A stretch of DNA of 17,410 nt from a virus. Lineage: Duplodnaviria > Heunggongvirae > Uroviricota > Caudoviricetes. The position numbers were made by a program, and so were the translations under genes. Below, piece after piece: positions 2,103 to 17,410 of this stretch. Every line of letters starts with the position of its first letter. Within the stretch, counting starts at the first letter, position 1. The notes beneath the pieces are model-generated. The model saw only the letters and a list, made by a program, of their open reading frames with translations, was not told the DNA's origin and searched no databases. The stretch is taken from the IMG/VR virus record IMGVR_UViG_2690316099_000011; one strand, given 5' to 3'.

Positions 2103-2394
2103 AGATTATGTCGTGCCGATCCTGTCGGCAACGGCCACGGCCGGGGGGATCTTTATGGCGCTGATGCGCAAAACCTTTGTCCCCCGCGAGGCCTTTGAAA
2201 AACTCTCCGACCGGGTTGAGCGGGTGGAGAGCCGGATTTCCGGCCTGCCCACGCAGCAGGAGGTGAACAGACTCAATATCGAAATCACCACCCTGCGCGG
2301 TGAGCTTAAGGCCACCAATGCCACCCTGAAATCCGTCTCCCACCAGAACGAACTGCTGCTGGAGCAGGCTGTAAGGAAAAAACACAATGAGTGA
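2083..2394 (+). CDS. Small membrane protein with N-terminal transmembrane helix and coiled-coil domain; Mu gp25 releasin-like
   Basis: Hydrophobic segment VVPILSATATAGGIFMALM followed by a heptad-like charged region; the start overlaps the stop of the zinc-finger gene; the position is equivalent to Mu gp25. Confidence 0.55.
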   Translation: MWISIVKDYVVPILSATATAGGIFMALMRKTFVPREAFEKLSDRVERVESRISGLPTQQEVNRLNIEITTLRGELKATNATLKSVSHQNELLLEQAVRKKHNE

Positions 2395-2677
2395 TTTCAT
2401 TACTGAAGATCAGCGTCTTGTCATTCTGCGGTCGCTGGCGGATTACAACGGCGAACTGGGCGAATCCGTGCTTCAGGACTGCCTGGATGATTACGGCCAC
2501 CGCGTGTCCCGCGACACCGTGCATACCCATATTGCCTGGCTTGCCGAGCAGGGACTGGTGCGTAAGCGCACGCTTGTTAACGGTTATTTCATCGTTGAAC
2601 TGACCGGCCGGGGTCAGGATGTGGCGGAAGGCCGCGCCACCGTTCCGGGTGTGAAGAAACCACGCGCAAGGGGGTAA
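2387..2677 (+). CDS. Hypothetical 96-aa protein, possibly winged-helix; Mu gp26-position protein
   Basis: ORF with an 8-nt overlap onto the preceding gene; coding-like composition and a basic C-terminus; no recognisable catalytic motif. Confidence 0.55.
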   Translation: MSDFITEDQRLVILRSLADYNGELGESVLQDCLDDYGHRVSRDTVHTHIAWLAEQGLVRKRTLVNGYFIVELTGRGQDVAEGRATVPGVKKPRARG

Positions 2678-5184: not shown

Positions 5185-6773
5185 TGGGACGCATAATTGA
5201 TCTTGACGGAAAACCTCTCTCCTTTGACCCGGAGATGCAGAGTACCGCGCTGGATATTCCGCAGATTGCCAGCCGTTATGTTGAGCATCCCGCCTCGGGT
5301 ATCACCCCGAACCGGGCGGCGCAGTGCCTTCGGGGGGCTGAACGTGGCGACCTGATTGCCCAGTCCGATCTGGCGGCTGACATTGAAGAAAAGGACACCC
5401 ACCTTTTTGCGGAGCTGGGCAAGCGACGTCTTGCCATTCAGGGGGTGCCATGGAGTATTGAGCCGCCACCGAACGCCAGCGCGAATGAGAAAAAGGACGC
5501 GGAAATGCTCGACGAATATCTGCATTCCGCAGACTGGTTTGATGCCATGCTGTTTGACGCCACGGATGCCATCCTGAAGGGCTATTCCTGCATGGAAATT
5601 GAGCACGGGATGCTCGGTAAAATGCACATCATCCGCGCCATCCGCTGGCGTGACAGCGGGCATTTCTGCCTTAACCCGGATGATTTGAGCGAACTGCGGC
5701 TGCGTGACGGCAGCCATGCCGGGGTGGCGTTTCAGCCTTTTGGCTGGATAGTGCATCAGTCACGTTCACGGACCGGTTACGGTGGCGCAACGGGGCTTGT
5801 CAGGACGCTTATCTGGCCGTTCATTTTCAAAAACTATTCCGTGCGCGATCTGGCCGAATTTCTGGAGGTGTACGGACTGCCGATGAAGGTCGGGAAATAC
5901 CCGTCCGGGGCAACACCGGAGCAGAAAAGCGCCCTGATGCGGGCGGTGATGGATATCGGGCGACGTACAGGCGGGATCATCCCGGCCGGGATGTCGCTGG
6001 AATTTCAGGCGGCAGCAAACGGTCAGGCCGATCCATTTGAAACCATGATTTCGTGGGGGGAGCGTTCCATCTCCAAAGCAATACTCGGCGGCACGCTGAC
6101 CACGGAAGCCGGAGACAAAGGCGCGCGCTCGCTGGGTGAGGTGCATAACGAGGTGCGCCGGGAAATCAGGGATTCTGATTTACGGCAGCTGGCTGCAACC
6201 CTGAACCGCGATCTGGTGTATCCGCTGTACGCCCTGAACACCACGCACACTATTGATATCCGCCGTCTGCCACGTATCTGCTTCCAGACCAAAGAACCAG
6301 GTGATATCACCAAAATCACCAGTGCGGTGATGCAGCTCAGTACGGGGATGGATATTTCTGATCCCTGGATACGGGAGCAGACCGGTATTCCGCAGCCCAC
6401 GCCCGGTGAAGCCATATTCCGTGTCCGTCAGAGTGGCAATGAACCGGCTCAGACCGACAGGGAAACACCACCGGAAAAACAGGAAAAAACAGAGCAGACG
6501 GCGCTGTCAGCCAGACTGCCGGAAGCGAAAAGCACGCCGCGTGATGAACTGGATGATATGGGGGACGCGGTGCCTGCCCGCCGCTTACAGGAGGCCATCG
6601 ACCCGGTACTGGAGCCGGTCATTGATGCCATCAGAACGCGGGGGCTGGCGGATGCGCTGGCAGACCTGCCTGCCCTTTATCGTGAAATGGATGATTCCCG
6701 CCTGATGACGCTGCTCAGTGATGCCATGTTCGCTGCGGAAATGAAGGGGATGCTGGATGACACAGGGGATTGA
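5175..6773 (+). CDS. Portal protein (Mu gpH/gp29-like, DUF935 family)
   Basis: About 530-aa ORF directly after the terminase with an overlapping start (GTG at 5175 or 5184, after a GGGGG Shine-Dalgarno) and an acidic C-terminal tail; position as in Mu. Confidence 0.88.
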   Translation: MLVVGRIIDLDGKPLSFDPEMQSTALDIPQIASRYVEHPASGITPNRAAQCLRGAERGDLIAQSDLAADIEEKDTHLFAELGKRRLAIQGVPWSIEPPPNASANEKKDAEMLDEYLHSADWFDAMLFDATDAILKGYSCMEIEHGMLGKMHIIRAIRWRDSGHFCLNPDDLSELRLRDGSHAGVAFQPFGWIVHQSRSRTGYGGATGLVRTLIWPFIFKNYSVRDLAEFLEVYGLPMKVGKYPSGATPEQKSALMRAVMDIGRRTGGIIPAGMSLEFQAAANGQADPFETMISWGERSISKAILGGTLTTEAGDKGARSLGEVHNEVRREIRDSDLRQLAATLNRDLVYPLYALNTTHTIDIRRLPRICFQTKEPGDITKITSAVMQLSTGMDISDPWIREQTGIPQPTPGEAIFRVRQSGNEPAQTDRETPPEKQEKTEQTALSARLPEAKSTPRDELDDMGDAVPARRLQEAIDPVLEPVIDAIRTRGLADALADLPALYREMDDSRLMTLLSDAMFAAEMKGMLDDTGD

Positions 6774-8088
6774 TTTAGGTTATGCCGCCACGCTTCCCTC
6801 AAAAGAGGCGGTGGCATACTTCCGCGCCAAAGGGGAGCATATCAGCTGGAACTGGTTCGAAACAGACGCGGATGTTCATGCCCGTTCATTCACGGCGGCA
6901 AAAGTGGCACGCCTGGACGTACTGACCACACTACAGGCGGAAGTGCAGCGTGCTGTTGATGAGGGCATTTCACAGAAAGCATTTATCCGCACGCTGACAC
7001 CCCGCCTGCAAAAGCTGGGATGGTGGGGAAAGCAGATTGTGGTGGACAGTGCAGGGAACGCGGAAGAAGTGCAGCTTGGCAGCCCCCGCCGTCTGGCGCT
7101 GATTTACAACGTGAACACCCGTGTGGCTTACAATGCCGGGCGTTACACGCAGATGATGAACAACACGGACACGCATCCGTTCTGGCAGTATGTGGCGGTG
7201 ATGGACAGCCGCACCCGCCCGGCACATTCCGCCCTTAACGGGCTGGTATTCCGCTATGATGATCCGTTCTGGAATACTCACTACCCGCCCAATGGCTGGA
7301 ACTGTCGCTGCCGTGTGCGGCCATTGTCTCAGGCCCGTCTGGATGCAATGGGGTTATCCGTTTCATCCGGTGAGGATCATCTCTCCACCCGCAATGTTGA
7401 GGCTGGCGTGGATAAACAGACCGGAGAAGTCAGAGAAATGCCGGTGACCACATATTCAGATGGCACCAGAACCATGACACCGGATGTGGGCTGGTCATAT
7501 AACCCCGGCTCGGCAGCGTTCGGCACAGACCAGGCGCTGATCCGCAAACTGATCGAGGTGAAAAGCCCGGCGTTACGGGAAATGGTGGTTCAGGAGATGA
7601 ACAACAGCCCGGAGCGGCAGCTGGCGTTCCGCATCTGGGCAAAAAACATCATGCAGACCCGGCGAGGTGGTAACGATATCCGCACGCTGGGCTTTATGAC
7701 TGAAAGCATTGCGCAGGCAGTGGAAAGCCGGACGGGAACGCCACCGGCCCGCCTGCTGGCGATGAGCGGTAAAAATGTGCTCCATGCAGACAGTGTGAAA
7801 CATCAGAATGACGGCATCGCCCTGATGCCAGAGGACTTCGGGCGCTTACCGGCAATGCTGGCAAAGCCAAAAGCGGTGCTGTGGGACAAACGGCACAACA
7901 ATCTGATGTATATCGTGGAAAATAAGGATGGCAGTGTGCAGATTGCCGTTAATGCACCGTACAGTCTGAAACGTCAGCCCGACAAACTGGATGTGATTGT
8001 GAATGCTTACCGGGTTATCAATATGGATAAGCTGAAATCGGATATCCGGGGCGGAATGCTTGAGGTGCTGGAAGGACAAATTGATTAA
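6757..8088 (+). CDS. Head morphogenesis protein, MuF family (Mu gp30/F-like)
   Basis: 443-aa ORF overlapping the portal stop by 17 nt; central region (RLALIYNVNTRVAYNAGRYTQMM...NGWNCRCRV) matches the MuF/SPP1 gp7 domain pattern as I recall it. Confidence 0.85.
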   Translation: MTQGIDLGYAATLPSKEAVAYFRAKGEHISWNWFETDADVHARSFTAAKVARLDVLTTLQAEVQRAVDEGISQKAFIRTLTPRLQKLGWWGKQIVVDSAGNAEEVQLGSPRRLALIYNVNTRVAYNAGRYTQMMNNTDTHPFWQYVAVMDSRTRPAHSALNGLVFRYDDPFWNTHYPPNGWNCRCRVRPLSQARLDAMGLSVSSGEDHLSTRNVEAGVDKQTGEVREMPVTTYSDGTRTMTPDVGWSYNPGSAAFGTDQALIRKLIEVKSPALREMVVQEMNNSPERQLAFRIWAKNIMQTRRGGNDIRTLGFMTESIAQAVESRTGTPPARLLAMSGKNVLHADSVKHQNDGIALMPEDFGRLPAMLAKPKAVLWDKRHNNLMYIVENKDGSVQIAVNAPYSLKRQPDKLDVIVNAYRVINMDKLKSDIRGGMLEVLEGQID

Positions 8089-8243
8089 CGGTCAGTGGCG
8101 GGGGTCGAACCCNNNNNNNNNNNNNNNNNNNNNNNNNNNNNNNNNNNNNNNNNNNNNNNNNNNNNNNNNNGGCACCGACTTTACCAGTTAAGCGTACACT
8201 GACCGCCTGTTTATTTTATATTCATCTTTTATGCGGAGGCAAT

Positions 8244-8769
8244 ATGTCATCCATTGATGCGGCGGTCGTGGTGGACGTTGCGCGTCTCCAGCGGGTCTTT
8301 GCCCGGCTTCAGNNNNNNNNNNNNNNNNNNNNNNNNNNNNNNNNNNNNNNNNNNNNNNNNNNNNNNNNNNNNNNNNNNNNNNNNNNNNNNNNNNNNNNNN
8401 NNNNNNNNNNNNNNNNNNNNNNNNNNNNNNNNNNNNNNNNNNNNNNNNNNNNNNNNNNNNNNNNNNNNNNNNNNNNNNNNNNNNNNNNNNNNNNNNNNNN
8501 NNNNNNNNNNNNNNNNNNNNNNNNNNNNNNNNNNNNNNNNNNNNNNNNNNNNNNNNNNNNNNNNNNNNNCGGATTATGGCGATACCTGGGCGCTGATTGG
8601 ATCAAATGAACCTTATGCAGCCATTCATCAGTGGGGGGGCCTGCCTGGTATGCCACCGGGACCGGCGGCCATTGGCGCACGTCCGTATATGGGCTTTGAT
8701 CAGGTGGCAGAACAGGAGATCATGGACGAAATCAGAAAACGCTTTAAAAAGGCCACAGAAACGCCGTAA
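8244..8769 (+). CDS. Mu G-like protein (gp31 position), interrupted by an N-run at 8313-8569
   Basis: ATG 8244 with GGAGG 5 nt upstream; N-terminus MSSIDAAVVVDVARLQRVFARLQ and a C-terminal segment ending at TAA 8767-8769 are in different frames across the gap, so the gap length is not exact. Confidence 0.55.
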
Positions 8770-8946: not shown

Positions 8947-10071
8947 ATGAAGACGAAAAACACGCCCAAACTTGCTTATGCCATTCTGAATGCCATCAGC
9001 CTGTCCGCAGACGGGGACGGTGACTGGTGTCAGATCATGCCAGCCGGTCGGGTAAAGGCCCGTGACGGTCGCCCGGAAAAACCGGAGGAAGGCTGGCTGA
9101 TTAACCATGCGGCCGTTGAGCGTATGGTATCCGGGGTCGTGGCACTCAATCAGCCGGTGAAGATTGACTATAACCACCAGTCACTGATTGAGGGGCATGC
9201 GGCACCGGCTGCCGGTTTTGTCATGGCCTCGCCGGAGAACTTCCGTTTCAGTGAAGAGCGGGGTTTTGAAGTGCGTCCGAAGTGGAACCCTCCGGCCATT
9301 GAACACCTGCGCAATAACGAATTTCCCTGGTTTTCCCCGGTGATTGGTTATGACGAAATCACCGGTGAACCTGTTGAGCTTCGGATGCTGGCTATTACCG
9401 GTGACCCCGGTCTGACTGGCATGAATCCTGTCGCCGCACTGTCGGCGGATGACCTTTATAACGCCTTAAACCCTCCTTTAAAGGACACCTCCATGAATGA
9501 GCAATTACGCCAGTTGCTGACGGCGCTCGGTCTGACCGTGGCCGACGGTGACGAATTTACACCGGAACTGGGCACGGCGGCGCTGTCTGCCCTTACCGGG
9601 ATCAAAACCCGTGCGGATGCGCACGACACCCTGAAAACGCAGGTTGCCAGCCTGTCGGCAGAGCTGGAAACCGCAAAAGGCACACCAACTGGCGGCACTA
9701 TTGATCTGACGAAATACGTGCCCGTTGAGACGTATAACGCCCTGCGTACCGAATATGTCGCGCTGTCGGCACAGCACGGCAGCACCACGCTGGAGCAGTT
9801 GCTGGATAAGGCTGAGTCCGAAGGACGCATTTTCAAAAGCGAACGCGGATACATGGAAGGACTCGGACAACAGATTGGCGTTACAGCACTTTCTGCACAG
9901 CTTGACGCCCGCCAGCCGGTTGCGGCTCTGACCACTCTTCAGACCGACACCGTGACCGTGCCGGATAAAAAGACCGCCACTGCTGTGCTGTCGGCTGAAG
10001 ATATCGCCGCCGCCCATCTGCTGGGTAAAACCGAAGCCGAGTTCCTGAAAATGAAAGAGGAAATGCAATAA
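8947..10071 (+). CDS. Head maturation protease / scaffold protein (Mu gpI/gp32-like)
   Basis: 374-aa ORF between the G-like gene and the major head gene; N-terminal half globular, C-terminal half Ala/Leu/Thr-rich and helical, scaffold-like. Confidence 0.8.
   Translation: MKTKNTPKLAYAILNAISLSADGDGDWCQIMPAGRVKARDGRPEKPEEGWLINHAAVERMVSGVVALNQPVKIDYNHQSLIEGHAAPAAGFVMASPENFRFSEERGFEVRPKWNPPAIEHLRNNEFPWFSPVIGYDEITGEPVELRMLAITGDPGLTGMNPVAALSADDLYNALNPPLKDTSMNEQLRQLLTALGLTVADGDEFTPELGTAALSALTGIKTRADAHDTLKTQVASLSAELETAKGTPTGGTIDLTKYVPVETYNALRTEYVALSAQHGSTTLEQLLDKAESEGRIFKSERGYMEGLGQQIGVTALSAQLDARQPVAALTTLQTDTVTVPDKKTATAVLSAEDIAAAHLLGKTEAEFLKMKEEMQ
9493..10071 (+). CDS. Possible in-frame nested scaffold protein (Mu Z-like) from an internal start in the protease gene
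   Basis: Internal ATG at 9493 preceded by AAGGA at the boundary between the globular and helical halves; Mu is known to express a scaffold from an internal start of gene I. Confidence 0.35.
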   Translation: MNEQLRQLLTALGLTVADGDEFTPELGTAALSALTGIKTRADAHDTLKTQVASLSAELETAKGTPTGGTIDLTKYVPVETYNALRTEYVALSAQHGSTTLEQLLDKAESEGRIFKSERGYMEGLGQQIGVTALSAQLDARQPVAALTTLQTDTVTVPDKKTATAVLSAEDIAAAHLLGKTEAEFLKMKEEMQ

Positions 10072-11421: not shown

Positions 11422-11872
11422 ATTACGCCACCGAAACCGATATGCGGGCACGTTACCGCGAGGATTTGCTCAGGCCATTACTGGCCGTGCCCCGTTCGGA
11501 TGAACCGGACACGCGCAAGCTGAACCGGGCACTGACGGACGCGTCTGCCCTTATCGACAGCTATCTGTCTTCCCGTTACACGCTGCCGCTGGCGGTGGTT
11601 CCGGCGGTTCTTGTTCAGCACTGCTGCACGATTGCCTTTTATTACCTGTGCGATCAGCGGGCATCCGATCAGGCGCGTGACCGTTACCGTGAGGCGCTGG
11701 CCTGGCTGAAAGACGTCATGAACGGCAATGTGCCGGTCGGCGTGGATACCGACGGTGCGGCCCCTGNNNNNNNNNNNNNNNNNNNNNNNNNNNNNNNNNN
11801 NNNNNNNNNNATTTACCGCAGGTGCAGTCTGATGCGGCGGTGTTCGGGCGCAACCAGAAGGGCTTTATATGA
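11418..11872 (+). CDS. Mu gp36-like protein (DUF1320 family), interrupted by an N-run at 11767-11810
   Basis: N-terminal 116 aa in a clear ORF; C-terminal segment ...VFGRNQKGFI* ends at TGA 11870-11872 overlapping the next ATG; the frame differs across the N-run. Confidence 0.6.
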
Positions 11873-11881: not shown

Positions 11882-12877
11882 CCGAACAGGCNNNNNNNNN
11901 NNNNNNNNNNNNNNNNNNNNNNNNNNNNNNNNNNNNNNNNNNNNNNNNNNNNNNNNNNNNNNNNNNNNNNNNNNNNNNNNNNNNNNNNNNNNNNNNNNNN
12001 NNNNNNNNNNNNNNNNNNNNNNNNNNNNNNNNNNNNNNNNNNNNNNNNNNNNNNNNNNNNNNNNNNNNNNNNNNNNNNNNNNNNNNNNNNNNNNNNNNNN
12101 NNNNNNNNNNNNNNNNNNNNNNNNNNNNNNNNNNNNNNNNNNNNNNNNNNNNNNNNNNNNNNNNNNNNNNNNNNNNNNNNNNNNNNNNNNNNNNNNNNNN
12201 NNNNNNNNNNNNNNNNNNNNNNNNNNNNNNNNNNNNNNNNNNNNNNNNNNNNNNNNNNNNNNNNNNNNNNNNNNNNNNNNNNNNNNNNNNNNNNNNNNNN
12301 NNNNNNNNNNNNNNNNNNNNNNNNNNNNNNNNNNNNNNNNNNNNNNNNNNNNNNNNNNNNNNNNNNNNNNNNNNNNNNNNNNNNNNNNNNNNNNNNNNNN
12401 NNNNNNNNNNNNNNNNNNNNNNNNNNNNNNNNNNNNNNNNNNNNNNNNNNNNNNNNNNNNNNNNNNNNNNNNNNNNNNNNNNNNNNNNNNNNNNNNNNNN
12501 NNNNNNNNNNNNNNNNNNNNNNNNNNNNNNNNNNNNNNNNNNNNNNNNNNNNNNNNNNNNNNNNNNNNNNNNNNNNNNNNNNNNNNNNNNNNNNNNNNNN
12601 NNNNNNNNNNNNNNNNNNNNNNNNNNNNNNNNNNNNNNNNNNNNNNNNNNNNNNNNNNNNNNNNNNNNNNNNNNNNNNNNNNNNNNNNNNNNNNNNNNNN
12701 NNNNNNNNNNNNNNNNNNNNNNNNNNNNNNNNNNNNNNNNNNNNNNNNNNNNNNNNNNNNNNNNNNNNNNNNNNNNNNNNNNNNNNNNNNNNNNNNNNNN
12801 NNNNNNNNNNNNNNNNNNNNNNNNNNNNNNNNNNNNNNNNNNNNNNNNNNNNNNNNNNNNNNNNNNNNNNNNNNNCG

Positions 12878-12949: not shown

Positions 12950-14585
12950 TGATTAACTTTGATTATATCGGCGATAACAATCGCATTCCGCTGGTACAGA
13001 TTGAAATCAATAATTCAATGGCCGTGACCGGCACTCCACCACAGCGTCAGGCGGTACTGTTGTTTGGTCAGGCTGCAATGAAAGACACCACCATTCAGGG
13101 GCGCGGTCAGCTTGATGTACCAGTACGTATTACCCGAGCTTCACAAGCAAGAGAACTCTGGGGGCGAGGTTCCATGATTGCACTGATGGTAGAGGAATTT
13201 ATCGCCATTAACCCTGACACAGAGTTATATGCCATTGCACAGGGGGCTGGAACAGGTCAGTCCAGGGCATGCGTGATGAATATCATTGGAACAGCATTGG
13301 CAGACGGGGTGTTAAGTGTTTACATCGGCGGTCGCCGTTACCTCCTGCCCGTCAGTAAGGGGAAAAAAGGTAAAGAGCTTGTGGAAGAGCTGGCTAAGGT
13401 CATTAACGCTGACACTGATGCGCCATTCACTGCTATCGCAGCTGAAGTCAGTGGTGATAATGCTGAAGGACTTAAAGGGAGCATGGGGGTTAACGCCCGC
13501 TTTATCGGTGAATGCTCAGCTCATGATTTACGGGTGAACTATTATGACGGTGAAACTACACCGGCCGGTCTTACGCTGGAGCTCGTCGCGCCAACACAGA
13601 AGGCAACAAACCCCGATATCACCCGTAGCGTCTCAGGGATGGGGAATCGTCAGTACAACTACATCGTCATGCCCTATAAGGATGCGGCAAATCTCAAAAT
13701 TCTGGCGGATGAACTGCTGAAACGCTGGGGACCGGTAAAAATGTCGGACGGTATGGTCTGGATGGCGCATACCGGCACCTTCGGTACGGCAACCAGTTTT
13801 GGTGAATCCCGTAATGACTTCCTGTTTACCTGCACTTCTATTCCTAAAGCACCAGAGCCGGATTATGTCTGGGCGGCCTCCATTTNNNNNNNNNNNNNNN
13901 NNNNNNNNNNNNNNNNNNNNNNNNNNNNNNNNNNNNNNNNNNNNNNNNNNNNNNNNNNNNNNNNNNNNNNNNNNNNNNNNNNNNNNNNNNNNNNNNNNNN
14001 NNNNNNNNNNNNNNNNNNNNNNNNNNNNNNGCGCCCTCCCTGTCAACGGATCCGGCCCGACCATTACAGACACTGGCGCTGCCTGCCCGTATGGCACCTG
14101 AAGCACCGGCTCGTCTGACGCGGGAAGAGCGAAACAGCCTGCTTTATACCGGCATGTCCACGGTGACCGTTGCGGCCGCTGATGTGGTGCAGATTGAACG
14201 TCAGGTGACGATGTACCGTCAGAATGCATACGGCGAAAGCGATCCCAGCTATCTGGATGTAGAAACCATCTACACCCTGTCATATCTGCGTTATTCCCTG
14301 CGCACCTTTATCACGCAGCGTTTCCCGCGCCACAAACTGGCCGATAACGGTACTCCCGTCCGGCCCGGTCAGAATATCGTGACGCCGGAGATTATGACGC
14401 TCCAGCTGATTGCACTGGGGGAAGAATGGGTGGAACTCGGGCTGGTCGAAAATCTGGACACCTTTAAAAAGAATCTGCTCGTGGAGCGCAACACAAAAGA
14501 CCGTAACCGTCTGGATGTGATGTGTACACCGGATCTGGTTAACCAGTTCCGCTTCATGGCCGCGCAGATCCGTTTCATTTTGTGA
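12949..14585 (+). CDS. Contractile tail sheath protein (Mu gpL/gp39-like), interrupted by an N-run at 13886-14030
   Basis: About 300-aa N-terminal part plus a 164-aa C-terminal part ending at 14585, directly upstream of the tail tube gene; size and position fit a sheath protein; the frame differs across the gap. Confidence 0.7.
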
Positions 14586-15893: not shown

Positions 15894-17410
15894 NNNNNNN
15901 NNNNNNNNNNNNNNNNNNNNNNNNNNNNNNNNNNNNNNNNNNNNNNNNNNNNNNNNNNNNNNNNNNNNNNNNNNNNNNNNNNNNNNNNNNNNNNNNNNNN
16001 NNNNNNNNNNNNNNNNNNNNNNNNNNNNNNNNNNNNNNNNNNNNNNNNNNNNNNNNNNNNNNNNNNNNNNNNNNNNNNNNNNNNNNNNNNNNNNNNNNNN
16101 NNNNNNNNNNNNNNNNNNNNNNNNNNNNNNNNNNNNNNNNNNNNNNNNNNNNNNNNNNNNNNNNNNNNNNNNNNNNNNNNNNNNNNNNNNNNNNNNNNNN
16201 NNNNNNNNNNNNNNNNNNNNNNNNNNNNNNNNNNNNNNNNNNNNNNNNNNNNNNNNNNNNNNNNNNNNNNNNNNNNNNNNNNNNNNNNNNNNNNNNNNNN
16301 NNNNNNNNNNNNNNNNNNNNNNNNNNNNNNNNNNNNNNNNNNNNNNNNNNNNNNNNNNNNNNNNNNNNNNNNNNNNNNNNNNNNNNNNNNNNNNNNNNNN
16401 NNNNNNNNNNNNNNNNNNNNNNNNNNNNNNNNNNNNNNNNNNNNNNNNNNNNNNNNNNNNNNNNNNNNNNNNNNNNNNNNNNNNNNNNNNNNNNNNNNNN
16501 NNNNNNNNNNNNNNNNNNNNNNNNNNNNNNNNNNNNNNNNNNNNNNNNNNNNNNNNNNNNNNNNNNNNNNNNNNNNNNNNNNNNNNNNNNNNNNNNNNNN
16601 NNNNNNNNNNNNNNNNNNNNNNNNNNNNNNNNNNNNNNNNNNNNNNNNNNNNNNNNNNNNNNNNNNNNNNNNNNNNNNNNNNNNNNNNNNNNNNNNNNNN
16701 NNNNNNNNNNNNNNNNNNNNNNNNNNNNNNNNNNNNNNNNNNNNNNNNNNNNNNNNNNNNNNNNNNNNNNNNNNNNNNNNNNNNNNNNNNNNNNNNNNNN
16801 NNNNNNNNNNNNNNNNNNNNNNNNNNNNNNNNNNNNNNNNNNNNNNNNNNNNNNNNNNNNNNNNNNNNNNNNNNNNNNNNNNNNNNNNNNNNNNNNNNNN
16901 NNNNNNNNNNNNNNNNNNNNNNNNNNNNNNNNNNNNNNNNNNNNNNNNNNNNNNNNNNNNNNNNNNNNNNNNNNNNNNNNNNNNNNNNNNNNNNNNNNNN
17001 NNNNNNNNNNNNNNNNNNNNNNNNNNNNNNNNNNNNNNNNNNNNNNNNNNNNNNNNNNNNNNNNNNNNNNNNNNNNNNNNNNNNNNNNNNNNNNNNNNNN
17101 NNNNNNNNNNNNNNNNNNNNNNNNNNNNNNNNNNNNNNNNNNNNNNNNNNNNNNNNNNNNNNNNNNNNNNNNNNNNNNNNNNNNNNNNNNNNNNNNNNNN
17201 NNNNNNNNNNNNNNNNNNNNNNNNNNNNNNNNNNNNNNNNNNNNNNNNNNNNNNNNNNNNNNNNNNNNNNNNNNNNNNNNNNNNNNNNNNNNNNNNNNNN
17301 NNNNNNNNNNNNNNNNNNNNNNNNNNNNNNNNNNNNNNNNNNNNNNNNNNNNNNNNNNNNNNNNNNNNNNNNNNNNNNNNNNNNNNNNNNNNNNNNNNNN
17401 CGGGGTGTCA

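What the first reader, a model, noticed from the sequence alone, without database searches (positions are those of the whole stretch)
8089..8209. Dyad-flanked, tRNA-like element around the masked stretch between the F and G genes
Immediately after the F stop, CGGTCAGTG (8089-8097) is the perfect reverse complement of CACTGACCG (8199-8207), and these flank a 58-nt N-run. On the minus strand the visible ends resemble a tRNA: a 5' GTCAGTG that pairs with a 3' CACTGAC, preceded by a T-arm-like GGG-TTCGACC-CCCGC, and a D-loop-like TAACTGGTAAAG. The element would be about 115 nt if the N-run length is real, which is too long for a standard tRNA, and a 4-bp D-stem cannot be formed. It is followed on the + strand by a T-rich tract, so it could instead be a long terminator or attenuator hairpin or a small inserted structured element. 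I do not recall any feature between F and G in Mu.
Basis: seen in the sequence. Interest (0 to 1): 0.5.

Follow-up and report, generated by a model that had tools for sequence, protein, structure and literature searches.

The report
Anticodon-less tRNA mimic gene in Mu-like phages
Between two head genes of this Mu-like prophage sits a small, separately transcribed gene for an RNA that folds like a tRNA but has no anticodon and no free acceptor end; it is conserved in many Mu-like phages and in small Mor-encoding mobile elements, so it probably acts as a tRNA look-alike, not as a decoder.

Summary
The dyad and the tRNA-like ends are real. The "115 nt" size is not: the N-run length is artificial (58 N stand for 24 nt in a 98.9%-identical E. 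coli prophage).

Unmasked, the element is an ~83-nt RNA gene on the minus strand, wedged between the F stop codon and the G ribosome-binding site. It has its own sigma-70-type promoter. Phage Mu itself has no such gap, because F and G overlap there.

Across 36 distinct homologues, the terminal, D and T helices co-vary. The tRNA core and elbow nucleotides are invariant, and every wobble pair works only on the minus strand.

The anticodon stem-loop is replaced by a variable helix, mostly capped by a tetraloop. The acceptor helix runs on past position 1:72 for a total of 6-15 bp, and the predicted transcription start is its first paired base. It is therefore not a decoding tRNA: ARAGORN rejects it, Rfam's tRNA model scores it 31 against a threshold of 29, and PGAP labels it "tRNA-OTHER" or, wrongly, "tRNA-Tyr".

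The same RNA also occurs in two kinds of Mor-encoding, satellite-like elements.

Best reading: a trans-acting, non-decoding tRNA mimic whose partner is unknown. I found no Rfam family or paper describing it.

The parts
8237..8242 (-). -35 hexamer TTGCCT of the element's own promoter. It overlaps the G ribosome-binding site and start region on the other strand.
   Evidence: This is the only sigma-70-like site found in 7800-8320. The same site is found in L001 and in Sakai Sp18. Thirty-five of 36 family members have such a -35/-10 pair.
8213..8218 (-). -10 hexamer TAAAAT, with an 18-nt spacer. The predicted transcription start is about 8206-8207, which is the first paired base of the terminal helix.
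   Evidence: The distance from the -10 hexamer to the helix foot has a median of 6 nt across the family, although helix length ranges from 6 to 15 bp.
8197..8207 (-). 5' strand of the terminal (acceptor-like) helix, GGCG-GUCAGUG. This comprises the 7 acceptor pairs plus 4 further pairs, 2 of them G.U.
   Evidence: Sequence. Covariation: the helix is 97-99% paired, and 7 of its 9 pairs show double changes.
8194..8196 (-). U8-A9 plus an extra C, linking the acceptor helix to the D arm.
   Evidence: U is present in 36 of 36 members, A in 35 of 36, and C in 36 of 36.
8178..8193 (-). D arm: GCUU / AACUGGUA / AAGU, carrying A14, A15, G18, G19 and A21.
   Evidence: The loop nucleotides are invariant. 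The D stem shows compensatory changes, for example GAAU/AUUC in L085-L091.
8171..8177 (-). Linker and start of the arm that replaces the anticodon stem-loop (CGGUGCC).
8113..8170 (.). Masked stretch of 58 N. In near-identical relatives it is 24 nt (minus strand UGCCUCCGGGUGGAUCAUGUAUGC). That sequence holds the rest of the arm with its UCCG tetraloop, the AUCAUGUAU linker, and the first two bases of the T stem.
   Evidence: The window's own bases cannot be read.
8098..8112 (-). Visible part of the T arm: (GC)GGG / UUCGACC / CCCGC.
   Evidence: G53, U54, U55, C56 and C61 are present in 36 of 36 members, and A58 in 34 of 36. The T stem is 99% paired and shows covariation.
8087..8097 (-). 3' strand of the terminal helix, CACUGAC-CGUU. 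It overlaps the F stop codon (8086-8088) by two bases. No CCA is encoded.
6757..8088 (+). Flanking gene F (minor head protein). It is context only, not part of the RNA.
8244..8769 (+). Flanking gene G (virion morphogenesis protein). It contains a masked stretch whose length is not real. It is context only.

Best explanation
The element is a gene for a small, non-decoding RNA of about 83 nt that mimics a tRNA. It was inserted as a compact unit (promoter plus RNA) between the F and G head genes of one set of Mu-like phages, and it is read from the strand opposite the late operon.

**Shown**
- It has all four tRNA helices. The terminal, D and T helices co-vary. The fourth, the arm that replaces the anticodon arm, folds as a hairpin in every member, but only 68% of its aligned cells pair.
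- The nucleotides that build the tRNA core and elbow are invariant: U8, A14, A15/U48, G18G19, and the T loop UUCRA.
- The anticodon loop is replaced by a further helix of variable length and sequence. Its tip is usually a stable tetraloop.
- The acceptor helix continues beyond pair 1:72, and no NCCA is encoded.
- A sigma-70-type promoter sits so that transcription should begin at the first paired base.
- The same RNA family occurs in Mor-encoding, satellite-like elements outside the F-G setting, sometimes as tandem copies.

**Inferred**
- The RNA is made from the prophage by host RNA polymerase, probably in the lysogen and early after induction.
- Its 5' triphosphate end is locked in the helix, so no RNase P step is needed for single copies.
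- Its 3' end is produced by cleavage and trimming back to the helix, since there is no terminator.
- It folds into an L shape.
- Both working ends of a tRNA are closed off while the elbow and core are kept. It therefore most likely acts in trans by occupying a factor that recognises tRNA shape, as a decoy or competitor. Candidates are a tRNA-directed defence or toxin effector, RNase P, or another elbow-binding protein.

The identity of that partner is not known. The confidence given (0.75) is for "functional, trans-acting, non-decoding tRNA mimic"; the specific decoy or anti-defence role I put at only about 0.25-0.3.
For: **Unmasked sequence and tRNA-model hit**
- Searches give Rfam tRNA 31.0 bits against a gathering score of 29, with the acceptor, D and T arms matching. 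Divergent members score 36-37 bits.

**Structure**
- Hand-built alignment of 19 distinct variants: acceptor 99.2% paired and T stem 98.9% paired, against 37-51% when partners are slid.
- Model-fitted alignment of 36 distinct members: 90.6% paired, 18 of 23 pairs with double changes, and a covariation score of 0.511 against 0.191 in shuffles (reached by 0 of 500).

**Strand**
- All one-sided changes are G.U on the minus strand. On the plus strand pairing is lower: acceptor 93.2% (99.2% on the minus strand), T stem 95.8% (98.9%), D stem 75.0% (85.5%).

**No anticodon**
- The arm is 21-50 nt, with tips such as UCCG, UUCG, UCAG, UCAA and AGUG, and no member has a 7-nt loop.
- ARAGORN finds no tRNA in the window, L001, L002 or 30 other loci.

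**Core nucleotides**
- The tRNA core and elbow nucleotides are invariant.

**Promoter**
- It is the only sigma-70-like site in the region in the window, L001 and Sp18.
- Thirty-five of 36 members have one. At least 9 of 12 matches occur in 58% of members against 4% of shuffles.
- The distance from -10 to the helix foot has a median of 6 nt while the helix varies from 6 to 15 bp.

**Insertion**
- Mu, D108, SfMu and Shewanella phage MuM16-1 have F and G overlapping or 9 nt apart.
- Most of the 52 loci without the element (80 G-anchored loci in all) have an overlap of 4 nt or a gap of 4-11 nt. The 28 loci with the element have gaps of 85-135 nt.

**Position and orientation**
- Position and orientation are constant in 33 of 34 further loci.

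**Action in trans**
- The RNA occurs in an E. coli island of about 8 kb at tRNA-Ile (15 genomes, two tandem copies) and in Mor + gpT mini-elements.
- The second copy in the L003 array lacks a promoter, and the second copy in L090 starts 11 nt after the first.
- No conserved ORF lies downstream.

**Elbow recognition**
Against: - There are no expression data, so the promoter, the start site and the RNA ends are all predictions.
- No terminator was found, so the transcript may simply run on as antisense RNA into F.
- The middle of the window's own copy is masked and is inferred from relatives of 98-99% identity.
- The L-shaped fold is inferred from conserved nucleotides, not modelled in 3D.
- The sequences are related, which inflates shuffle-based covariation statistics. 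Alignment A5 was also fitted to the model.
- No binding partner or phenotype is known, so the decoy step is inference only.
- The terminal helix might still be opened and cut by RNase P and then receive CCA, which would make it an acceptor-competent tRNA-like RNA.
- Other Mu-like lineages carry unrelated small structured elements at the same spot and in the same orientation. That could mean the position or the antisense promoter matters more than the tRNA shape.
Confidence: 0.75

Rival explanations
1. The element acts in cis. The divergent promoter and its antisense transcript dampen or uncouple late-operon expression by transcriptional interference or RNase III-type antisense pairing over F. 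In this reading the tRNA-like fold only stabilises the 5' end.
For: - It always lies antisense to the late operon.
- The -35 hexamer overlaps the G ribosome-binding site.
- There is no terminator, so read-through into F is likely.
- Unrelated small structured elements occupy the same slot and strand in other Mu-like lineages.
Against: - Simple 5' stabilisation does not explain invariant elbow and core nucleotides or four co-varying tRNA helices.
- The same RNA occurs away from F-G, in Mor-encoding elements, and as tandem copies.
- In L111-type lineages the alternative RNA terminates exactly at the F stop codon, so it overlaps no coding sequence.
Confidence: 0.12
2. The RNA is an acceptor-competent, non-decoding tRNA-like RNA. 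RNase P and 3' nucleases open the extended helix, CCA is added, and the RNA is charged. It is then used outside decoding, as an amino-acid donor or as bait for enzymes that act on the CCA end.
For: - The 7+5 bp acceptor/T stack and G1-C72 are conserved.
- Tandem copies without their own promoters must be excised like tRNAs.
- From my own knowledge: T4 tRNAs that lack an encoded CCA are matured by RNase BN and the CCA-adding enzyme.
Against: - Pair -1:73 is kept in 19 of 19 distinct variants with five pair types, and pair -2:74 co-varies. That argues for a closed end.
- The discriminator base is not conserved (C, U, A or G), so there is no common synthetase identity.
- The predicted start is the first paired base, and in L085-L091 it lies within the acceptor helix, leaving no leader for RNase P.
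Confidence: 0.1
3. It is a genuine decoding tRNA with an odd anticodon arm, for example the tRNA-Tyr that PGAP calls in the island copy, or a suppressor or frameshifter tRNA.
For: - PGAP labels one island copy tRNA-Tyr.
- ARAGORN labels one L090 copy tRNA-Lys.
- The Rfam tRNA score is just above threshold.
Against: - No member has a 7-nt loop.
- The tips are interchangeable tetraloops or triloops. The "Tyr" copy has CAGCC-UGUACA-GGCUG, and the "Lys" copy has a 7-bp stem with a UUU triloop.
- ARAGORN rejects all the other copies.
- The discriminator position is base-paired.
Confidence: 0.03
4. It is a plus-strand feature of the late mRNA: a long terminator or attenuator hairpin between F and G.
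For: A 9-bp GC-rich dyad is followed by a T-rich tract on the plus strand.
Against: - No terminator-like site is found on either strand.
- The dyad encloses a four-way junction, not a hairpin.
- The wobble pairs become A.C mismatches on the plus strand.
- The T-rich tract is the complement of the minus-strand -10 region.
- G has to be expressed downstream.
Confidence: 0.03
5. It is a decaying tRNA pseudogene with no function.
For: The tRNA-model score is weak, the anticodon is missing, and PGAP calls it "tRNA-OTHER".
Against: - Compensatory changes occur in the terminal, D and T helices.
- The elbow nucleotides are invariant.
- The promoter is kept.
- All of this holds across phages whose G proteins are only about 40% identical and whose hosts range from Escherichia to Shewanella.
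Confidence: 0.04

Closest known systems
Canonical bacterial and phage tRNA (Rfam RF00005)
   Same: It has a cloverleaf with a 7-bp acceptor helix, a D arm, a 5-bp T stem with a UUCRA loop, and the core nucleotides U8, A14, R15-Y48, G18G19 and G53-C61. It scores just above the Rfam gathering threshold.
   Different: It has no 7-nt anticodon loop and no anticodon. The acceptor helix continues past pair 1:72, so the discriminator base is paired. No CCA is encoded, and there is an extra C after A9. ARAGORN rejects it.
Bacterial pseudo-tRNAs with regulatory roles, for example Bacillus cereus tRNA-Other (recalled from my own knowledge, not tested here)
   Same: Both are tRNA-shaped small RNAs that gene finders label "Other" and that are not used for normal decoding.
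   Different: tRNA-Other keeps an anticodon loop and is aminoacylated. This family has both ends closed, and it is carried by phages and satellite-like elements of Gammaproteobacteria.
YrlA / bacterial Y RNAs, which are tRNA mimics bound by Rsr (recalled from my own knowledge)
   Same: Both are non-coding RNAs that mimic the acceptor/T/D part and elbow of a tRNA without an anticodon, and both are also found in phages.
   Different: In YrlA the RNA ends lie in a Ro-binding helix on the anticodon side, and the acceptor-like stem is closed by a loop. The genes lie next to rsr. Here the ends are in the acceptor-like helix, no conserved Ro-binding helix is present, and no rsr gene is nearby.
tRNA-like domain of tmRNA
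   Same: Both have an acceptor/T-arm mimic that lacks an anticodon arm.
   Different: tmRNA is about 360 nt, has pseudoknots and a tag reading frame, and carries a G3.U70 pair and a CCA end. ARAGORN's tmRNA search finds nothing here.
P1/P7 c4 and P4 CI antisense immunity RNAs (Rfam C4 family; the RNase P-processing and tRNA-like features are recalled from my own knowledge)
   Same: These are small, stable RNAs of temperate phages and satellites, with tRNA-like features that serve processing.
   Different: c4 and CI act through loops complementary to targets in their own operon. Here there is no Rfam C4 hit and no excess of complementary sites in the prophage. The tips are tetraloops.
Phage "morons" (autonomous accessory units inserted between conserved genes)
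   Same: This is a compact unit with its own promoter, inserted between two genes that are adjacent or overlapping in relatives. Presence and absence vary within each host group.
   Different: The product is an RNA, not a protein, and no terminator is present.
Engineered "tRNA scaffold" RNAs, in which the anticodon arm is replaced by a payload helix (recalled from my own knowledge)
   Same: The architecture is the same: a tRNA body with the anticodon stem continued into an extra helix, a design known to give stable RNAs in E. coli.
   Different: This one is natural. Its payload helix is short and variable, with no recognisable aptamer. Its acceptor end is also closed.

Membership tests
tRNA (decoding transfer RNA) | Cloverleaf with acceptor, D and T arms and the conserved core and elbow nucleotides | tested here: met
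   The Rfam tRNA model aligns positions 1-71. The helices co-vary. The core nucleotides are invariant.
tRNA (decoding transfer RNA) | 5-bp anticodon stem with a 7-nt loop carrying an anticodon | tested here: not met
   The arm is 21-50 nt with tetraloop or triloop tips that differ between close relatives. The Rfam alignment skips this region.
tRNA (decoding transfer RNA) | Unpaired discriminator base followed by a CCA end (encoded or added) | tested here: inconclusive
   No CCA is encoded. Position 73 pairs with -1 in 19 of 19 distinct variants. Whether CCA is added after processing cannot be tested here.
tRNA (decoding transfer RNA) | Recognised by dedicated tRNA gene finders | tested here: not met
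   ARAGORN finds no gene in the window, L001, L002 or 30 other loci. Its single call in L090 is a triloop hairpin. PGAP gives "tRNA-OTHER".
tmRNA | tRNA-like domain plus a tag reading frame and pseudoknots | tested here: not met
   ARAGORN's tmRNA search is negative. The element is only about 83 nt.
C4 / CI antisense RNA (RF01695) | Match to the family model, and loops complementary to targets in the same element | tested here: not met
   No Rfam hit other than tRNA. Complementary 10-mers in the prophage number 10 against 6.7 expected, and 12-mers number 0.
Intrinsic terminator / attenuator | GC-rich hairpin with a short loop, directly followed by a U tract on the transcribed strand | tested here: not met
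   No terminator-like site is found on either strand in 7800-8320, and none at the element in L001 or L004.
YrlA / Y RNA | Ro(Rsr)-binding terminal helix with a conserved bulge, and a neighbouring rsr gene | tested here: not met
   The terminal helix has no conserved sequence, since all of its pairs vary. No rsr gene is annotated in the prophage. Rfam gives no Y RNA hit.
Phage moron | Insertion between genes that are adjacent in relatives, with its own promoter | tested here: met
   F and G overlap in Mu and in most loci that lack the element. The promoter is conserved.
Phage moron | Its own terminator | tested here: not met
   None was found.

The most novel reading that the evidence does not exclude
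Mu-like phages and the Mor-encoding mini-elements that seem to ride on them share a family of "double-capped" tRNA mimics, in which the elbow is kept and the anticodon and acceptor end are closed. These would work as lineage-matched RNA decoys. They would either neutralise a tRNA-directed immune or toxin effector, or mediate cross-talk between helper phage and satellite. The E. coli island carries one copy resembling each of the two E. coli Mu-like lineages. If so, this would be a new class of RNA-based counter-defence or helper-satellite factor.
Probability: 0.25. Interest if true: 0.8.

Novelty: new variant of a known kind. Interest (0 to 1): 0.6.

Why it matters
tRNA-targeting nucleases and toxins are now recognised as a major arm of bacterial anti-phage immunity, and phages are known to answer with replacement tRNAs.

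A conserved phage RNA that keeps only the shape of a tRNA would be a different kind of answer, or a new regulatory RNA. It would give a direct handle, by pull-down with the RNA, on whichever host or phage factor reads tRNA shape.

The finding also has three practical consequences:
- It corrects database labels. The "tRNA-OTHER", "tRNA-Tyr" and "tRNA-Lys" calls in these prophages are not decoding tRNAs.
- It defines a family that is missing from Rfam.
- It marks the F-G junction of Mu-like phages as a hot spot for small RNA genes.

Tried and rejected
- **First genome-contig scan.** A pattern spanning both the D and T arms found nothing. The D-arm-only pattern gave nine hits, of which only the Shewanella MAG (L042) was real. 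The Acinetobacter hits lie inside a coding sequence (dnaJ-like), and the others lack a T arm.
- **ARAGORN.** It was negative on the window and on more than 30 loci. Its one "tRNA-Lys" call (L090) is a 7-bp stem with a UUU triloop.
- **Rfam.** Only weak tRNA hits were found. No family matched the window at gathering threshold, and none matched the other F-G elements.
- **My covariance model with filters off.** It does not recognise the other slot occupants, which score about 9 bits, at noise level. I do not claim homology for them.
- **c4/CI-type antisense idea.** The element has no excess complementarity to the rest of its prophage.
- **Coding payload idea.** The 77-aa minus-strand ORF at 8079->7846 is absent from near-identical relatives.
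- **Link to the AAA_13 / PDC-S06 defence gene next to the L050 copy.** This is not general, because L159 and the E. coli island lack that gene.
- **Strong-gyrase-site idea.** The G-I gap that holds the gyrase site in Mu is retained separately, and selection is clearly at the RNA level.
- **Literature.** Seven searches of the held library found no description of this RNA.
Full report
**1. What is in the window**

The window is the late (head and tail) region of a Mu-like prophage: terminase, portal, F (6757-8088), G (from 8244), protease I (8947-10071) and major head protein T.

Directly after the F stop codon (TAA, 8086-8088) lies CGGTCAGTG (8089-8097). With two G.U pairs the helix reaches 11 bp (8087-8097 with 8197-8207).

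Between the two arms are 15 readable bases, 58 N (8113-8170) and 26 readable bases. ARAGORN finds nothing in the window, and Rfam finds nothing at gathering threshold.

**2. The mask length is not real**

A search of complete E. coli genomes found the F-G region in 229-231 of 5,426 genomes. The best relatives (98.9% identity, for example NZ_CP010183, locus L001) span 34 fewer bases than the window.

Anchoring on the flanks shows that the 58 N correspond to 24 nt. The next N-run (257 N, inside G) corresponds to 205 nt. The element is 80 nt as annotated, or about 83 nt with the 9-bp helix.

**3. What the unmasked element looks like**

On the minus strand L001 reads:

(CG)GUCAGUG-UAC-GCUU-AACUGGUA-AAGU-CGGUGCCUGCCUCCGGGUGGAUCAUGUAU-GCGGG-UUCGACC-CCCGC-CACUGAC(CG).

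- PGAP annotates it as "tRNA-OTHER".
- Rfam's tRNA model scores it 31.0 bits against a gathering score of 29. The acceptor, D and T arms align, but the anticodon-arm region is skipped.
- ARAGORN rejects it.

**4. Homologues and structure**

DNA-pattern scans of viral contigs supplied many copies. So did one genome-collection hit (a Shewanella MAG), annotated E. coli loci and 80 loci anchored on G-protein relatives.

I built a covariance model from 19 variants. It detects the element in 28 of the 80 G-anchored loci. In every case it lies on the strand opposite G and just upstream of the G start. This holds down to phages whose G protein is only about 40% identical.

Counts on a hand-made, ungapped alignment of 19 distinct variants:

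| Helix | Cells paired |
|---|---|
| Acceptor | 99.2% (4 of 7 pairs with changes on both sides) |
| T stem | 98.9% |
| D stem | 85.5% |
| Slid controls (whole structure) | 37-51% |

On the model-fitted alignment of 36 distinct members, 90.6% of cells pair and 18 of 23 pairs show double changes. The covariation score is 0.511 against 0.191 in shuffles, reached by 0 of 500 shuffles. This alignment leans towards the model, and the sequences are related, so both figures are generous.

All one-sided changes are G.U pairs on the minus strand. They become A.C mismatches on the plus strand, where pairing falls to 93.2% (acceptor), 95.8% (T stem) and 75.0% (D stem). The RNA is therefore the minus strand.

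The nucleotides that build the tRNA core and elbow are essentially invariant:
- U8, A14, A15, G18, G19, A21, U48, G53, U54, U55, C56, R57 and C61 are present in 35-36 of 36 members.
- A58 is present in 34 of 36.

**5. Why it is not a decoding tRNA**

The region between the D and T stems is 21-50 nt long. It folds as a basal helix of 3-5 bp (where the anticodon stem would be), a small asymmetric internal loop, and an apical helix of 3-8 bp.

The tip differs even between close relatives: UCCG or UUCG in one group; UCAG, UCCG or UCAA in another; also AGUG, UGAG, a UUU triloop, and loops of 10-14 nt. Most tips are stable tetraloops. No member has a 7-nt loop.

At the other end, pair -1:73 forms in 19 of 19 distinct variants with five different pair types, and pair -2:74 co-varies between C-G and A-U. 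Extended into the flanks, the terminal helix is 6 to 15 bp long depending on lineage. No CCA is encoded, and the discriminator base is not conserved.

PGAP's "tRNA-Tyr" (E. coli island copy) and ARAGORN's "tRNA-Lys" (one L090 copy) are false readings of such hairpins.

**6. It is an independent transcription unit**

The only sigma-70-like site in the region is on the minus strand immediately upstream of the element. This is true of the window, of L001 and of the roughly 80%-identical Sakai Sp18 prophage. In the window it is TTGCCT (8242->8237), an 18-nt spacer, and TAAAAT (8218->8213).

Across the family:
- 35 of 36 members have a -35/-10 pair, with a mean of 8.5 of 12 matches against 6.2 in shuffled upstream sequence.
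- At least 9 of 12 matches occur in 58% of members against 4% of shuffles.
- Some lineages are near consensus (TTGAAC-17-TATAAT or TATACT).

The number of bases between the -10 hexamer and the first paired base of the terminal helix has a median of 6 and is mostly 4-9. This holds although helix length varies from 6 to 15 bp. The predicted start is therefore the foot of the helix. That is an inference, since no transcript data are available.

No intrinsic terminator follows the element, and no conserved ORF lies downstream.

**7. It is an insertion**

In Mu, F and G overlap by ATGA. D108, SfMu and related phages match only from G onward. Shewanella phage MuM16-1 has a 9-nt gap.

Most of the 52 G-anchored loci that lack the element have an overlap of 4 nt or a gap of 4-11 nt. 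The 28 loci that carry it have gaps of 85-135 nt, which the promoter plus the RNA fill exactly. In 33 of 34 further loci found with a generalised pattern, the element again lies between F and G on the opposite strand. Presence and absence vary within both the Escherichia and the Shewanella groups.

**8. Other contexts**

(a) *An E. coli island of about 8 kb at tRNA-Ile.* It carries an integrase, an HTH regulator, Ash, Icd-like genes, a RepA helicase, SSB, PerC and a Mor-family activator. Iteron-like repeats follow, and then two tandem tRNA-like genes. It is present in 15 genomes. One copy resembles the L001-type RNA and the other the Sp18-type RNA. The second copy has no promoter of its own.

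(b) *Mini-elements L045, L050 and L159.* These carry a Mor-family gene (PF08765), a Mu-like gpT head gene (PF10124) and variable cargo. In L050 the cargo is an AAA_13 ATPase matching PADLOC candidate PDC-S06 end to end, plus a DUF2971/PDC-S31 protein. In L159 it is a DUF4238 protein. Their RNA copy has a terminal helix of 14-15 bp (one mismatch) and its own extended -10 promoter.

L050 and a Mu-like prophage that carries the element (L049) come from the same source genome. E. coli JNEC-KY203 likewise has both an island and a Mu-like prophage.

These contexts, and the tandem arrays (also three weak copies in L090), argue that the RNA works in trans and is not only a local antisense feature.

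**9. Mechanism**

*Shown:* the RNA is tRNA-shaped, with a conserved core and elbow. It has no anticodon and a closed acceptor end. It has its own promoter and is conserved under selection.

*Inferred:*
- It is made by host RNA polymerase from the prophage or island.
- Late-operon transcription from the other strand would be expected to occlude its promoter late in infection.
- Its 5' end is sequestered in the helix. From general knowledge of E. coli RNA decay, this protects against 5'-end-dependent decay and leaves no leader for RNase P in single-copy genes.
- Its 3' end must come from cleavage and trimming. In tandem arrays the copies must be cut out of a common precursor.

What remains exposed is the part of a tRNA read by shape-recognising partners. 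The tRNA elbow is recognised by the ribosome, RNase P, T-box RNAs and many proteins, and some viruses use elbow mimics as decoys (PMC4810234).

My best guess is therefore a decoy or competitor for a factor that recognises tRNA shape. I cannot name that factor. A tRNA-directed defence or toxin effector is attractive but untested.

I put about 0.75 on "functional, trans-acting, non-decoding tRNA mimic", and about 0.25-0.3 on the specific decoy or anti-defence role.

**10. Rivals**

- A cis-acting antisense or interference role is the strongest rival. It rests on the constant antisense position, the lack of a terminator, and the unrelated structured elements in the same slot in other lineages.
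- An acceptor-competent RNA produced by RNase P and CCA maturation is possible, but the conserved closure of the end argues against it.
- A decoding tRNA, a plus-strand terminator and a dead pseudogene are each contradicted by tested features (sections 4-6).
- A c4/CI-type antisense RNA is not supported. The prophage shows no excess of complementary sites, and there is no Rfam C4 hit.

**11. Novelty**

RefSeq already flags these loci as "tRNA-OTHER", so their existence is recorded. Rfam has no family for them beyond marginal tRNA hits. Seven full-text searches found no description.

I classify it as a new variant of a known kind: tRNA mimics and pseudo-tRNAs. What distinguishes it is that both functional ends are closed, and that it is shared between Mu-like phages and Mor-encoding mini-elements.

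Noticed in passing
window 8313-8569, 11767-11810, 11892-12875, 13886-14030, 15894-17400: The window holds five further N-runs. At least the one inside G is not length-preserving (257 N stand for 205 nt in L001). It also breaks the G reading frame, so ORF calls and distances across masked stretches in this window cannot be trusted.
   Followed up: partly
L111, L112, L113, L117, L118, L120, L129 at about 2399-2501; L127 at 2335-2441 (minus strand): Other Mu-like lineages have a different small RNA-like unit in the same F-G slot and in the same orientation. It has a -10-like TATATT, about 85 nt of structured sequence, and a strong hairpin plus U7 terminator that ends exactly at the F stop codon. 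It matches no Rfam family and is not related to the tRNA-like RNA (scores at noise level).
   Followed up: partly
L095-L097 at 2287-2402; L115 at 2327-2450; L105 at 2253-2411; L125 at 2333-2483 (minus strand): GC-rich Mu-like lineages carry 114-157-nt F-G spacers. On the minus strand these fold into four-way junctions or long closed stems, for example L095 closed by GGACGAGUG/CACUCGUCC after a TATACT. They may be very diverged relatives or analogues of the tRNA-like RNA. My model scores them only about 9 bits.
   Followed up: partly
L003 / L132 (NZ_AP045176.1, 744,506-752,667): An integrative island of about 8 kb sits at tRNA-Ile. It carries an integrase, Ash, Icd-like genes, a RepA helicase, SSB, PerC and a Mor-family activator. 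A block of GTGAAA-type iteron-like repeats lies between mor and the two tRNA-like genes. It looks like a phage satellite that could depend on Mu-like helpers. It is present in 15 complete E. coli genomes.
   Followed up: partly
L050 1-9180; L045; L159: These mini-elements encode only Mor, a Mu-like gpT head protein and a 184-aa protein, plus swappable cargo. The cargo is an AAA_13 ATPase matching PADLOC PDC-S06 and a DUF2971/PDC-S31 protein in L050, and a DUF4238 protein in L159. They look like a capsid-encoding satellite of Mu-like phages with defence hot spots.
   Followed up: partly
L003 5996-6077; L090 2126-2200; L006 1691-1773: Annotation pitfalls. PGAP calls one island copy "tRNA-Tyr", and ARAGORN calls one L090 copy "tRNA-Lys(ttt)", although neither has an anticodon loop. 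A single T-loop change (UUCGACC to UUCAACC) is enough for PGAP not to annotate otherwise identical copies in many O157 genomes.
   Followed up: yes
L168 (Shewanella phage vB_SspS_MuM16-1, MZ568827, 18,697-21,523): This cultured Mu-like phage lacks the F-G element. Instead it has accessory genes between G and the protease gene: a two-helix protein, a transcriptional regulator and an RNA-directed DNA polymerase. Together with section 7 of the report, this points to the junctions around G as accessory-gene hot spots in Mu-like phages.
   Followed up: no
window 7846-8079 (minus strand): A 77-aa ORF with a TTG start begins 9 nt after the RNA gene, antisense to F. It is absent from near-identical relatives (L006, L009, L021), so it is a chance ORF.
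   Followed up: yes
L090 2127-2435 (minus strand): One distant Mu-like phage has three tandem, weakly scoring tRNA-like units in a 340-nt F-G gap. The middle one is hit weakly by Rfam tRNA-Sec (33 bits against a gathering score of 47).
   Followed up: partly
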